DNA from: Abditibacterium sp.
GTDB taxonomy: Bacteria > Armatimonadota > Abditibacteriia > Abditibacteriales > Abditibacteriaceae
Direction of reading: 5' to 3'
NCBI GenBank assembly: GCA_965246885.1
Contig: OZ251992.1
Coordinates: 736,001-800,000, forward strand
DNA length: 64,000 nt
Positions 18,001 through 24,000 of this stretch are shown in pieces (positions within the stretch are counted from its first letter, which is position 1; every line of letters starts with the position of its first letter). The position numbers are program-made.

Positions 18001-21000
18001 GGCTACTGGCGTCGGCGGTGAAGATTTGGTCGGCCAAGCGCGAACCCGACGCGAGGAACTGGCCCCACCATGCCCCCGCGATCATCTGCGTGAGGCGCGG
18101 GTCGTCCGGTGTGCTTGCGGGGGTAGCGGCTCCGGCGAGGCCCGCTTCGGTCACGAACAGCGCGGCGCGGGGAAAGCGGCTTTTGTCGAGCAAACCCGCG
18201 ACGGTCTTCAAACTCCCGACGGTGCGCGCGGCACTGATGGCTGCGGCGTCGCTTGCACCCCCATCCGGCGAGCCGAAAAAGCGCACGGACAGGAAATCCA
18301 GCCCGCGCGCGCCGCGCAAAAGCGCCGAGACGCTCGCGCTTTGCCCCGAAAAGTTGCCCGTCCCGCCGACTAAATACGTCTTCGAGACGGCTTTGAGGGC
18401 GTCGCGGCCCGCGTTGTAAAAGGCCAACGAGGTGGTGTCGTTCTGGTCGGGGCTGGCGGTGGCCAGTTCCCACGCGCGCACTTTCTGGTCGCGCAGGGCG
18501 CGCGCGGCTTGGGTGCACAGCGCAGCATAGCCCCGTTCGTCCAAGCCCCATTCGGGGGCGTTGGGCAAAGACACCAAGACCTGCGCGCGCAGACTCCGGG
18601 CGCGCGCCGCCGCAACGACCAAGCGGGCGAAGCTAAAACTGGGTTGGCTGGAGTCGGCGATATCCACAAGCGCGCCCGCGTCGAGACGTATCCAGCGCGG
18701 CGCGAGCACGCCGATGGCGCCGCGAAAGGCGGGGTTGGCATCCAAGACGACCTGCGTGCGCGCGTCGGCGGGGGCGCCCAACGACACGTCGGCCGCCGCC
18801 CGAATCAGGCCGCTCGTTTTGAGAAAGTCGGCTTGCACGGACACATCCCCACTCGCAAGGGGCGCACGGGTGGGGATGGGCGCCGGAGTCGGGGTCGGCG
18901 CCACCAACGGGCGGCCCGTCCCCCGCACTTCGATGTCGTCCACCGAAAAGAAGCGCGAACTCCACGCCCCGCTTTGCTCGAACTGAAGCAAATACACGCT
19001 CCCCATGCGCGGCGCGAGGGCTTCGCCGCGCGGCCCCCGGAAGTCAGATAGAGGAATGACAACTTGGCGCCAGCGCGGAGTGTCGAGGCGGATGGGACGG
19101 GGTAAGGAAAACGTCGCGTCGCGCCCGCCGATTTTACCGCGCAGTTGCAGCGTCACGCCTTGCGCTTCGCCGCCGCCATCCAGCGCGAAACGCAAGGTCT
19201 GCGCGCCCGCGTCGCTCCACTTCTGCCCATCAACGGGCCGCGACAAACTGGCCCAAGCCGCGCGGCCCGCGCGGAAGGTGAGGAGCGCGGCGCCCTTGGA
19301 TTTGCCAAACGCGCCGGGCGAAGTCGCCACGATGTCAGCCAACCCCACACGATTTTTGTCGGCGCGCACCCAGTTGCCCACGCCCGCCTCGAAGTTGTCT
19401 ACGGCGATGGTCACGGGCGTTTGCGCCTGAGCGCGGGCGCAGAAAGAAAGCAACAGGACGGTGGCGAAAGAAGTGCGGTTCATGGGTGCAAAGCAGCGAG
19501 AAGCAACGGCGCGCAGTTTAGCGGGAGACCTTGCGGCCTTCCGACTTCGCATTTGCTTGCGCGCGGCGTGCGCCGCACTTCTTGGGTTGTGGCACTCACG
19601 CGGTCAGCCGCCTTTCGCGGGCCGACGCACGCGCGAGTTATCCCCGCATGGGGAAAACCATAGGGATAAATCAGGGGAAAAGCGCGACCGTGAAATTTTT
19701 AGGCGAGGCCGCCAACGTGCGCGCGCCAAGGGAAAGGGAAAAAGCCTCTTGCGCGGGGCGCCCGATTATGCTTGGGAGCCTTCTATTTCCCCAACTTGCG
19801 ACAGGGTATGTGTCACGACGAAGGCGCTCAACAGGGAAAGCGGGGCGCCCACGACCAGTGGCACGGCAGCGAGCGTGGGCAGGGCTGCCGACAAACCAAA
19901 CAGCGTCACTATCCCACAAATGAGGGCGGGTGTCGTGAACGAGGGAAAGATGAGCGCAAACGAGCGCGCCGTTGCGGGAGCCGCATCGGACGACGAATCA
20001 CTCGAATCATTCAAGCTCGCCCGCGACAGGATGTCGGCGTTGGGCGCGACAGTTTCCAAGTCGCGCAAAAGAGAGGGCAAGAACTCCTCGAACGCCATGC
20101 GCGGCGATTGCATTTCCACAGCTTGACGGTAGGCGTCGTAGCGGCGGCGGCGCTTGGCGTCGAGCAAAACGGTGCGCGCTTGGGGCAGCAGTTCAAGTTG
20201 CAACCCCGCTTCTTGGCGGCGCGCGGGGGTGCGGTGGTCGCGGTCGGTTTGCGCTTCTTTGTAGCGGGCGTTAATGTGCTCGCGCAGTTCATCGGCGCCA
20301 AGATCGGTGGAAGCGCCGATGAGAGCGTAGAAGTCCACGAAACCGTCGGCGTGTTGCGCTCCGAGGGTAGGTTGGGTAATCATAATGGTGTTCGTATCCG
20401 GGTTGAGCAAGTCGTTTTACGCGACGACGGCGCGCGACAGCATCTCCTGTTCGAGCGCGACGAGCGCGCTGGAGCGTTCGCCAGACAGGCTCAGAAGCGC
20501 GCGCCCTTCGCGGCCCGTGATCTGATCGCGGGCGAAGACGGTGATGCGCCCGTTTTCGTCGCACCTGAACTCCACTTCGATTTGCGGCTCTCCGGCGGGA
20601 CGAAGCGGCGATGTGTCGAGGTCGAAGCGCCCCACTGGGGCGGAGTAAGAGTCCATGTCGCGCGCCTCGCCCTCGTAGATGAGGACGTTTACGACGGCTT
20701 GGTCGTCTTTTACCGTCGTATAGCCGCGCCGTATCTCGGTGTGCGGAAGCGGCGTCAGAGCGGGCACGACCGGGTCTACTCTCACGTTGCCCTTATGACT
20801 GGTCGCCACGCCGAGGGTATGTGACAGGACATGCCCCACCTTGATGTCGGGCAAAGACCCATCGCCCAACAGTAAGCCCGCTTGGATGGCGGCGCCCTTG
20901 GCCACGCACTCGTCGGGGTCGAAGAGTTGCGGACGCTTGCCCGTCGCGCGCAGCAGCATTTCCCGCACCATCGGCATACGCGAACTGCCGCCCACGCAAA

Positions 21001-24000
21001 GCACTTCCGCGATGTCGTCCCATTCCAAACCGGCCTGAGCCAAGACGTTCTCCAGCAGCATTTCGGTGCGCGCGAGCAGGTCGGCGCACAGCGAATCGAG
21101 GTCGGCGCGCGTCACTTCCACGCGCACCGGAAGCAGGGCATCGAGGGCGCTCGTCGGGTTGGCTTTGCGCGCCTTGAACGCGATGGGAGCCGACATCCGC
21201 GCCGAGAGTTGTATCTTGGCGGTTTCAGCCTTGAGGCGAAGCTCCGCTTCAAGGGCGCCGTCGTGGACGATCTCTTCGCCCAGTTCGGCGACCTTTTCCT
21301 CGACGAAGTTCATGATGCGGTCGTCGAAGTCTTTGCCGCCCAAAAACGGGTCGCCACCGACAGCTAATACGTGCAACTCGTCTTGGGAGATTTCGAGGAT
21401 GGTCACGTCGAAGGTGCCGCCGCCAAGGTCGTAGACGAGAATGTTGCGCGTTTCGTCGCGGTTGTTCAATCCGTAAGCGAGGGCTGCCGCCGTCGGCTCG
21501 GAAATGATGCGCAAGACGTTGAGGCCCGCCATTTTCCCGGCTTCAAGGGTCGCTTGACGCTGGTTTTCGTTGAAATAGGCGGGGACAGTGATGACCGCGT
21601 CCGACAAACTCTCGCCCAGTTCAGTCTCGGCGTCTTGAACGAGCTTGCGCAGGATAATGCTCGACAAGAACTCTGGCGAGTAGGAGCGTCCGTCCACGTG
21701 CAAGCGGTGATCGCTTTGGCCCATGAAGCGTTTAACGAACTGGACGACGCGCTCCGGGTCGTTGACGGTGGACTGCAGGGCGACTTCTCCCACGACGAAT
21801 TGCGGCTCGTCCACGAAAATGACGGAAGGCGTGGTGGTGCGGCCTTCGGAGTTCTTGATGATGGCGGGCTTGCCGTATTCGTCCAAGTAGGCAACGGCGG
21901 AATAGGTGGTGCCCAAATCAATGCCAATGGCGCGGTTCATGGTGTGTCTCCTTCTGTTTTAGGGGCTTTGCCCACGACGACTTCGGTTGGACGCAGGACA
22001 TGGCCTTTGAGCGTCCAACCGGGACGCGCCACGCTTTGCACGAGGCCGTCTTGTTCCGGCGCGACGGGAACTGTCGCCACCGCTTTTTGTCCGTGCGCGT
22101 CGAAGTGGCCTGCCGGTGTCGGCAACAGTTCGACTTCGCATGTGAGAAGCGCCTGCTCGAACTGGTCGCGCACGAACGCGATGTTGTCGCGGACTTTGTC
22201 GGCGCGTAGCGCGTTGGGCGCGAGGTTTTGGGCGGTCTGCGCCGTCTGATGAAGCGCCATTTCACGGTCGAACTCTTCGAGTGCGTCGAACACGAACAGC
22301 AGGGGGCGCAGAAGGGGCTTGACGTGTTCAAATACGAAGTCGCGCTTGTAATTCAACATTTCGGCGTGCAACGCGTCGAAGAGGCGCTCCGACTCGGAGT
22401 TCCTATGCCGCATGCCCGCGACATCGGTGCGCACCGCTTCAAGGCACCCCTGCATTTGCGTGATGGCCCCGGCCATCGCGCCAAGGGCATCGAGCAAATC
22501 TATCTCGTCGGGCGCGTGCTCTGGCTCGAGCGCCGCCATCGGCGCGTCAGTGGCAGACGTCTGGGAACCATTCCCGGACGTCTGGGAACCGGCGGCGGGC
22601 GTCGGCGGAACGGTTACGGGTGGCGCTCCGCGCCCCACGACCCTCCCGCGAACGCCCGCGAGCATCGCGGACACACTGGGTTTGGCTGTCGGCGCGTCTG
22701 GGGCGGCGGCGGGAGAAGCGCCGACAAACGCCAATTGGGAATTGAAGGAGTTGAACATGAGTGGTTAAGCGATCACCGCCTCCGCCTCGGATGTAGCGAT
22801 GGGCAGTTCGTCCGTCGAGTAGGCATCTTCGGCGTGCTGCGAGTTGTCCAACCCCATCTCTTCGTCTTCGGCGGGAACGCGCAAGCCCATCGTTAGCTCG
22901 ATGGCGCGCAACAGGAAGAACGTCATCACAAAGCAAAAGAGCGCGACGACAAACGCACAGCCGACTTGGTGCACGAAGGTGGCGGTGCCGCCTTCGAGCA
23001 ATCCGGGCAGGGCCGAGGAGTTCAGGCCGTTGCGCGCCAAGGCGCCTGTTGCGAACACGCCGGTCAGGATGGTGCCGGTCATGCCGCCGATGCCGTGCAC
23101 GGCGAAGACATCGAGCGAATCGTCAATGGTGCCCTGCGAGCGCCACCACACCATGAGGTAACACACGACGGTCGCAATGGCGCCTACGAAAATGGCGCCC
23201 AGAGGCGAGACGAACCCCGCCGCCGGGGTAATGGCGACCAAGCCGACGACCACGCCCGTAATGGCGCCAAGCGACGTGATGGCGCGGCGCACCAGCAAGT
23301 CCACCATCATCCACGCGAACATCGCCGCGCACGCCGCCAAAATCGTATTGGCCACCGCGAGGCCGCCCAAAGCGTCGGCGTGCAATGCCGACCCGCCGTT
23401 GAAGCCGCACCAACCGATCCACAACAAGCAGCCGCCCAACAAGCAAAGCGGCATGGAGTGGGGGTTCATCGCCACGCGCCCGTAACCCCGGCGCCGCCCC
23501 AAGAGGATGGCGGCGGCGAGCGCCGAGAACCCGGCACTTGTGTGGACGACCGTGCCGCCCGCGAAGTCCATCAGGCCCAGATTCGCTTCCCATCCGCCCG
23601 GAGACCACGCCCAGTGCGCGATAGGACAGTAGACCAATAACCCCCACAGGGAAATGAAGACCAGATACGAGGAGAACTTGATCCGCTCGATGAGCGCGCC
23701 GGAGATTAGCGCGGGGGTGATGAGAAAGAACATCGCCTGAAACAGCGAATGGACGCTTATCGGAATGGTGGGCGCGGCGACGTGCGCGGTTTTGGACACG
23801 AAGTCCCACAGGCCGAAGAACTCCGGCCCGCCAATCCAGCCGTTGGCCGCGCCGCCGTTGCCAAACGCGAGCGAGTAGCCGCCCACCGCCCACAAAAGTC
23901 CCAAGACCGCCATTGCCGCGAGCGACATCATCAGCGTGTTGATGGCGTTCTTGGTGCGCACGAGGCCGCCATAAAAGAAGGCGAGGCCGGGCGTCATCAT

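What a model noticed while it worked through the whole genome (the two positions that open the first line are those of the whole stretch)
19766..22758. Private Hsp70 system: HRN-motif J-domains, lidless Hsp70s and GrpE-like partners
Besides DnaK-DnaJ-GrpE, the genome has a second, family-specific Hsp70 machine. Two operons encode GrpE-like protein - 507-aa Hsp70 without the C-terminal lid - membrane-anchored J-protein (here and C1:2927861-2931074); a third lidless Hsp70 (g2907) and three more such J-proteins (g1172, g2741, g3057) lie elsewhere. All these J-domains replace the universal HPD motif with a conserved H-R-(N/D/T), and the three Hsp70s carry N->S in the J-contact segment (RIISEP vs RIINEP).
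Evidence so far: An HMM finds five strong members plus a degenerate one, and DnaJ weakly. AlphaFold pLDDT 87 and all top Foldseek hits are J-domains; 8/14 members hit Pfam DnaJ weakly. Present in 25/26 family genomes and 0/4 outside; the lidless Hsp70 is adjacent in 25 of 30 loci. Among the best 150 of 408 representatives the motif is HRN in 94, HRD in 19, and HPD occurs in 6. The Hsp70 paralogs are 59-64% alike and 41-43% to DnaK; hydrophobic segments in call 170.
(Added by a program. Inside this text positions count along the whole contig: contig position 736,001 is position 1 of the stretch shown here. "Call 12" and the like, gene names such as g00115 and contig names such as C1 are that model's own, and its searches are not shown. 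The text may have been shortened before it was handed on; [...] marks where a part breaks off. The agent that wrote the report below was given it as the finding of a first reader that could run no searches.)

Follow-up and report, generated by a model that had tools for sequence, protein, structure and literature searches.

The report
Private membrane Hsp70 set in Abditibacteriaceae
These soil bacteria keep a second, lid-less Hsp70 chaperone with its own exchange factor and membrane-anchored helpers that lack the supposedly essential His-Pro-Asp trigger; the docking surfaces look rebuilt on both partners, and this copy sits beside an ammonium transporter that may be its client.

Summary
The operon is real: GrpE-like, 507-aa lidless Hsp70 and a membrane J-like protein, tightly packed behind an ammonium transporter (amt). 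The J-like family occurs in 27 of 27 family genomes (Abditibacteriaceae by record titles) and 0 of 137 others in the phylum. It folds as a J-domain and is under purifying selection. Corrections: N170S is not a family trait (N in 103 of 120); one paralog has NRN; the His motif sits on a longer hairpin, so it is not a clean HPD swap; only 35 of 88 J genes adjoin the Hsp70. Better evidence of private pairing: ATPase residues are intact, but J-contact sites are rewired family-wide (D477R, E217N/D, D393H), and the J residue matching DnaJ K48 is Glu, a possible charge swap. Complex prediction gave weak support only (0.43, best control 0.00). New leads: an amt adjoins a module copy in 11 of 25 genomes, from two deep Amt clades, and other J members carry outer sugar- or solute-binding domains. 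It works like HscC-DjlB/C but is not HscC. This scan noted similar modules in other lineages. Binding, stimulation and clients are untested.

The parts
22765..24207 (-). Ammonium transporter (Amt), 480 aa, 6 nt upstream of the GrpE-like gene; probable first gene of the operon and candidate client
   Evidence: Pfam PF00909 E 6.5e-113; junction; amt within 2.5 kb of a lidless Hsp70 in 11 of 25 genomes
21937..22758 (-). GrpE-like nucleotide exchange factor, 273 aa, low-complexity N-terminus
   Evidence: Pfam GrpE E 8.9e-13, above cut-off; below all NCBIfam GrpE cut-offs; conserved across the family
20417..21940 (-). Lidless Hsp70, 507 aa: NBD, altered linker, SBD-beta, one short helix and a conserved Ala-hydrophobic-hydrophobic-small C-terminus
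   Evidence: Pfam HSP70; model matches ATP-docked DnaK, TM 0.87-0.90; site table
20564..20566 (-). Hsp70 Arg459, at the place of DnaK Asp477 (partner of DnaJ Lys48)
   Evidence: R 113, H 6, Q 1 of 120; D in 41 of 41 DnaK; numbering
21500..21502 (-).
19766..20410 (-). Membrane-anchored J-like protein, 214 aa
20051..20350 (-). J-like domain with lengthened helices II and III plus a fifth helix
   Evidence: AlphaFold2 pLDDT 94, pTM 0.84; best VIA Z 9.9, rmsd 3.2, 91 aligned, to a J-domain
20228..20236 (-). His-Arg-Thr motif at the end of the helix II-III loop
   Evidence: H 149 and R 139 of 150; loop is model residues 37-41, helix III starts at 42
20192..20194 (-). J-like Glu73, at the place of DnaJ Lys48
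   Evidence: E in 119 of 149; same register by hhalign
19814..19927 (-). Two predicted C-terminal membrane helices (aa 162-199)
   Evidence: Kyte-Doolittle scan only

Best explanation
A self-contained Hsp70 cycle that works at the inner face of the cell membrane and is insulated from DnaK/DnaJ. Shown: all parts are present, conserved and co-inherited; the ATPase site and peptide pocket are intact; the lid is gone; the J-contact surface is changed on both partners. Inferred: the membrane-anchored J-like proteins recruit the ATP-bound lidless Hsp70 through the rebuilt surface (Glu facing Arg where DnaJ Lys48 faces DnaK Asp477; the invariant His near the linker) and trigger hydrolysis. Without a lid, client grip is brief, which suits remodelling or regulating a few folded membrane proteins rather than refolding. 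The GrpE-like protein resets the cycle. The five or so J-like paralogs per genome act as address labels. The window's copy is a duplicated, fast-evolving branch that most likely serves its neighbouring ammonium transporter (about one in three for that last step).
For: J-like in 27 of 27 family genomes and 0 of 137 other genomes of the phylum; lidless Hsp70 in the 25 family genomes searched. D8, K70, E171, T199, R167, Q378, P419 and V436 kept in 39 of 39. D477 is R/H/Q and D393 is H in 120 of 120; E217 is N 77, D 18, R 9. D477R is one of only 3 charge reversals among 230 DnaK-conserved positions; the other two (D230K, R261E) are reciprocal. J side: K48->E 119 of 149, K26->N 84, R27->E/D 78, R22 kept 124. 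The K48-D477 salt bridge and K26/R27/E217 roles are from PMC8215388 (passages). J-domain dN 0.15-0.17 against dS above 1.0. The GrpE-binding hairpin is kept and longer, 28-33 against 27 residues (PMC10825016 passages). Complex: weak support, score 0.43, best of 3 controls 0.00; the mark was reached by 116 of 157 solved and 2 of 215 mismatched pairs, but at 0.60 or under by only 18 solved and both mismatches; runs agree in at least 92% of contacts, partner pLDDT at least 82; a like complex is solved (5NRO), so the pass may be from memory. Lidless DnaK keeps allostery (PMC6017645 passages). Amt link.
Against: HPD is described as essential in every system tested, and DnaK's R167 and Q378 are unchanged here, so the Asp35 partner site shows no compensation. 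In a gapless alignment from helix I the HPD positions read Q-x-N (Q 101, N 134 of 149), the same residues as the classic dead alleles H33Q and D35N. R477 could be paired inside the protein by the nearby new acids T475E (34 of 39) or A480E (38 of 39). 44 of 230 conserved positions switched and 57 became variable, so changes at J contacts are not rare by count. Allosteric residues K155, D326, K414, N415 and Q442 are also changed. One origin of the amt-linked Hsp70 branch is not rejected (AU p 0.29), and most modules have no amt.
Confidence: 0.55

Rival explanations
1. Pseudo-J tether: the J-like domain binds the lidless Hsp70 but does not stimulate hydrolysis. It parks or inhibits the ATP form at the membrane, as Tim16/Pam16-type J-like proteins modulate a motor (recalled).
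For: HPD lost and Q-x-N at those positions in one register; the third motif residue varies as a helix cap would (N 98, D 22, T 7, E 7 of 150); the Hsp70 model adopts the ATP-docked form.
Against: His is kept in 149 of 150 and Arg in 139; an exchange factor is kept in 25 of 43 loci, which implies turnover.
Confidence: 0.18
2. Signal relay: the J-like proteins are membrane receptors whose outer sugar- or solute-binding domains control access of the inner J-like domain to the lidless Hsp70, which acts as an ATP switch on transporters or regulators.
For: Of 29 hand-picked long family members, 6 carry SBP_bac_8/11 and 7 carry CBM6, CBM4_9, LamG or GH2 domains (one below cut-off); this genome's 647-aa member has SBP_bac_11 behind a hydrophobic segment. 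Neighbours are often transporters: Amt, and an ABC permease upstream in 11 of 53 loci read.
Against: The operon-encoded J proteins, including this one, end in a two-helix anchor with almost nothing outside. Topology rests on hydropathy only. No output domain was found.
Confidence: 0.15
3. Anti-phage or conflict module, akin to the HSP70-GrpE theme of GAP1-N2 GTPase systems.
For: PMC7159879 (passages) describes HSP70 plus GrpE plus DnaJ-fused FNIII proteins in such neighbourhoods.
Against: No recurring GTPase, FNIII or effector neighbour was recognised among the clusters (only part of them were annotated); no PADLOC hit for 6 of 6 proteins; fixed in the whole family, among housekeeping genes, and highly conserved.
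Confidence: 0.06
4. The lidless Hsp70 is a co-chaperone of DnaK (Hsp110-like), and the J-like and GrpE-like genes are loosely attached.
For: Proposed in general for prokaryotic DnaK derivatives in PMC13580251 (abstract and section 6); 13 of 43 loci show neither partner within 6 kb, some on short contigs.
Against: Peptide pocket and catalytic site are intact; translational coupling to its own GrpE; J-like and Hsp70 ranges coincide.
Confidence: 0.06

Closest known systems
E. coli HscC with tail-anchored DjlB and DjlC
   Same: Specialised Hsp70 stimulated only by its own membrane J protein; proposed membrane clients; cleft salt bridges lost, L1,2 insertion, 76-101 deletion (PMC8215388 section 12).
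   Different: Only 36% identical (234 bits) against 39% (311 bits) to E. coli DnaK. HscC keeps a shortened lid and has no GrpE; here the lid is gone and a private GrpE is kept. DjlB/C have HPE; here Pro and the acid are both lost.
Canonical DnaK-DnaJ-GrpE
   Same: Same three folds, GrpE-Hsp70-J gene order, intact catalytic residues.
   Different: Below the DnaK cut-offs (443 of 648; 436 of 823 bits); no lid; linker, D477, E217 changed; J protein is class C, membrane-anchored, without HPD. The genome has a normal set elsewhere.
HSP70-GrpE theme of GAP1-N2 GTPase systems (PMC7159879)
   Same: Paralogous HSP70 with its own GrpE and a DnaJ domain fused to a beta-rich module.
   Different: No GTPase or FNIII partner recognised; that theme is reported mainly from actinobacteria and firmicutes, and the passages seen say nothing of HPD loss.
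Myxococcus DnaK2 with its own GrpE, and lid-less DnaK derivatives of myxobacteria (PMC11019930, PMC13580251)
   Same: Duplicated Hsp70 with a dedicated GrpE; differing enrichment of membrane clients; some derivatives lack the lid.
   Different: MxDnaK2 keeps the lid; no HPD-less J partner is described in the passages read.

Membership tests
J-domain proteins | Four-helix J fold | tested here: met
   All 40 listed Foldseek rows are J-domain proteins or large complexes, none at E<=0.001; VIA Z 9.9; hhalign 97%
J-domain proteins | HPD motif after helix II | tested here: not met
   0 of 149 family members; H-R-x in 138
J-domain proteins | Basic helix II and Lys48/Lys51 | tested here: not met
   R22 kept; K26->N, R27->E/A/D, K48->E, K51->P; mapping by sequence anchors
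J-domain proteins | Stimulates Hsp70 ATPase | not testable with these tools
   Only a weak complex score
DnaK | Catalytic and nucleotide-binding residues | tested here: met
   D8, K70, E171, D194, T199, D201 in 39 of 39
DnaK | Alpha-helical lid and curated cut-off | tested here: not met
   Ends at 506-514 aa in most members; below cut-offs
DnaK | Conserved LLD linker and cleft salt bridges K55-E267, R56-E264 | tested here: not met
   Linker V/I-G-H; K55L, R56Q, E264L
HscC | 550-580 aa with shortened lid; GrpE hairpin absent; closer to HscC than to DnaK | tested here: not met
   507 aa; hairpin 28-33 aa; scores. No tree with HscC was built.
HscC | L1,2 insertion and 76-101 deletion | tested here: met
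   Plus 3 aa in 39 of 39 (HscC 4-8); deletion in 39 of 39, also in 6 of 41 DnaK
GrpE | Coiled coil, helical bundle and beta domain matching Pfam GrpE | tested here: met
   48.7 and 60 bits against cut-off 25.8
GrpE | Nucleotide exchange activity | not testable with these tools
   -
GAP1-N2 GTPase conflict systems, HSP70-GrpE theme | Linked DO-GTPases and FNIII-repeat protein | tested here: inconclusive
   None recognised among recurring neighbours, but no GAP1-N2 profile was searched

The most novel reading that the evidence does not exclude
A working Hsp70 cycle with a non-HPD trigger, built on a charge-swapped interface, serves as a membrane signalling and transport-control network: J-like receptors with outer sugar- or solute-binding domains and small anchored J-like adaptors direct lidless Hsp70s to transporters, and one duplicated branch regulates ammonium channels apart from the GlnK/PII system.
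Probability: 0.2. Interest if true: 0.85.

Novelty: new variant of a known kind. Interest (0 to 1): 0.6.

Why it matters
HPD is treated as the universal trigger of Hsp70 (99% of J-domains, PMC13580251). A whole bacterial family that keeps an HPD-less J family with a matching Hsp70 is a natural test of which contacts really drive hydrolysis, with a precise prediction (Glu/Arg for Lys48/Asp477). It could yield an orthogonal chaperone pair. The amt link offers a first concrete client for the many unexplained lid-less DnaK derivatives.

Tried and rejected
N170S as co-adaptation: rejected as a family trait. Gene conversion as its source: the Ser codons are TCN in 10 of 10, and local synonymous identity is raised, but it is equally raised in a pair without Ser; unresolved. 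HscC membership: rejected. A J-based genome scan could not be run for lack of a conserved stretch. Orphan ABC permease energised by the Hsp70: dropped, since an SBP and ABC ATPase pair lies at C1:2775035-2776497. Nitrogen operator upstream of amt: the conserved palindrome more likely belongs to the divergent dnaE. No sigma-70-type promoter found. No RNA holder listed. Monophyly test of amt-linked Hsp70s: not rejected. The Hsp70 tree is the quick tree; the careful search did not finish. Papers: 7 searches found no description of this system; Barriot et al. 2020 (J Mol Biol), the main survey of bacterial J proteins, is not held, and supplements of the papers cited were not read.
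Full report
Observation. The window carries, on the minus strand, amt (22765-24207), a GrpE-like gene (21937-22758), a 507-aa Hsp70 (20417-21940) and a 214-aa J-like gene (19766-20410). Gaps are 6 nt, an ATGA overlap with a ribosome-binding site, and 6 nt. The genome has a second such operon, a third lidless Hsp70, three more J-like genes and a degenerate copy, besides normal DnaK, GrpE and five HPD J-domains.

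Range. A profile of 19 J-like domains hits 27 of 27 family genomes, 2-8 matches each including weak ones, and 0 of 137 other genomes of the phylum at E<=1e-10, with at most 33 candidates scored per genome. The lidless Hsp70 is found in the 25 family genomes searched. Of the 43 loci, 17 show both partners within 6 kb, 8 only GrpE-like, 5 only J-like and 13 neither; several contigs are cut short. Counting all strong hits, 35 of 88 J-like genes adjoin an Hsp70.

The J-like domain. AlphaFold2 on 109 rows gives pLDDT 94, with helix II at 19-36, a loop at 37-41, helix III at 42-62 and an extra fifth helix. Fold searches return J-domains. In the best 150 of 794 representatives the motif is HRN 87, HRD 21, HRT 7, HRE 7, HHN 7, HRH 6, others 15; His is present in 149. 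One row is a canonical DnaJ-repeat protein and was dropped for the counts out of 149. The second operon of this genome has NRN. The register against HPD is not settled: HMMER puts His on His33 with a 5-residue gap, hhalign puts it on Asp35 with low confidence, and a gapless alignment from helix I puts Q-x-N on HPD and the third motif residue at the cap of helix III. So the hairpin is about one turn longer, with an invariant His near its tip. dN is 0.15-0.17 against dS above 1.0 in three orthologues. 133 of 150 have at least one hydrophobic segment.

The Hsp70. With E. coli numbering, the catalytic residues, R167, Q378, P419 and pocket residue V436 are kept in 39 of 39 family proteins. The model matches ATP-docked DnaK at TM 0.87-0.90 and ends in one helix and a short strand. 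Family-wide changes are D477R, D393H, L392G, E217N/D, K155 to hydrophobic, K414/N415, and loss of both cleft salt bridges; 120 further proteins agree. N170S is seen in only 10 of 39 and 10 of 120; it appears in all three paralog lineages of one small group of genomes, always as TCN. PMC8215388 (passages and section 12) lists R22, K26, R27, K48 and K51 against E206, D211, E217 and D477, with a K48-D477 salt bridge. On the J side R22 is kept, K26 is mostly Asn, R27 mostly acidic or Ala, and K48 is Glu in 119 of 149, in both spacing classes. D477R is one of three charge reversals among 230 conserved positions; the other two are reciprocal. Against this, 44 positions switched overall, and new acids at 475 and 480 could pair R477 internally. 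The mapping is by sequence, since no coordinates were available.

Complex. Hsp70 plus ATP plus J-like domain scored 0.43, best of three controls 0.00: weak support. The mark was reached by 116 of 157 solved and 2 of 215 mismatched pairs, but at 0.60 or under by only 18 solved pairs and both mismatches. Runs agree in at least 92% of contacts, partner pLDDT is at least 82, no interface was given, and a like complex is solved, so this shows likeness rather than binding.

Clues to clients. An amt lies within 2.5 kb of a lidless Hsp70 in 11 of 25 genomes (11 of 55 amt genes; 0.28 expected from random placement, though kin are not independent), and in one more genome. In 9 of the 10 genomes with two or more J-adjacent Hsp70s, one copy is amt-linked. 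The linked transporters fall in two deeply split Amt clades and three gene orders, so at least one swap or second recruitment occurred; one origin of the Hsp70 branch is not rejected (p 0.29). Both channel histidines are kept in the 17 Amt aligned (their role is recalled). This genome's single PII gene lies near glnA and another amt. A second J-like subtype follows a two-domain ABC permease in 11 of 53 loci read. Longer members carry solute-binding or carbohydrate-binding domains behind a hydrophobic segment: 13 of 29 hand-picked proteins. The stand-alone Hsp70 follows a LemA gene in 9 loci.

Mechanism. The best reading is an insulated membrane Hsp70 cycle: J-like anchors recruit and trigger the lidless Hsp70, which grips clients briefly (lidless DnaK keeps allostery with lower affinity; PMC6017645 passages), and the GrpE-like protein resets it (hairpin kept, PMC10825016 passages). 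Presence, conservation and surface rewiring are shown; binding, stimulation and clients are inferred. I give it 0.55; a non-stimulating tether 0.18; a receptor relay 0.15; conflict system and DnaK co-chaperone 0.06 each.

Comparison and novelty. It works like HscC-DjlB/C but fails HscC membership. Lid-less DnaK derivatives are known in general (PMC13580251, abstract, passages and section 6), and HSP70-GrpE-DnaJ cassettes are predicted in conflict systems (PMC7159879, passages). PMC11019930 and the preprint 10.1101/2022.02.28.482344 (passages) do not mention this system in the passages seen; PMC13012618 (passages) notes that HPD/AAA does not abolish activation in some systems. Seven paper searches found no description, but Barriot et al. 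2020 could not be read. This scan's notes record similar lidless-Hsp70, GrpE and HPD-less J modules in other lineages (unchecked, one partly fell), none alike in sequence and none with amt. I class it as a new variant of a known kind, interest 0.6.

Noticed in passing
window 24314-24329: Perfect 16-bp palindrome between amt and the divergent dnaE-like gene, kept in three relatives. Five exact copies in the genome, including one before a UvrC-like and one before a SRAP-like gene (names judged by eye); 8 copies at one mismatch against 0 for the control; enriched in the genus. Candidate DNA-damage operator; no LexA DNA-binding domain above cut-off.
   Followed up: partly
window 21500-21502; G000 C1:2928773 and C1:3229538 genes; L039-L041, L055, L061, L063, L066: N170S appears in all three old paralog lineages within one sub-clade, always as a TCN codon that needs two base changes: parallel selection or short gene conversion.
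   Followed up: partly
window 20417-20431: Nearly all family Hsp70s end in Ala-hydrophobic-hydrophobic-small; the model makes it a short strand. It may replace lid docking on lobe I (N13Y, T65V, S68F, Q114F) or be a degradation tag. The window's Amt ends alike.
   Followed up: no
L183:5051-6565 (G039), L184:640-2136 (G031): Other genomes of the phylum have a different lidless, about 500-aa DnaK copy with a canonical linker directly before a normal dnaJ.
   Followed up: no
L187:3997-8597 (G039): GrpE-like gene, divergent Hsp70 and a J protein with YPP in place of HPD: another private set outside the family.
   Followed up: no
G000 C1:404064-404597 (L036), L178, L182: Degenerate soluble J-like protein without the His motif, in 3 of 6 loci read upstream of an AAA ATPase.
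   Followed up: partly
G000 C1:2531800-2533400: Repeat array of CRISPR type, interrupted near one copy of the palindrome.
   Followed up: no
window about 28600-28750: Tandem 21-nt repeat between two genes, seen as repeated peptides in spurious ORFs.
   Followed up: no
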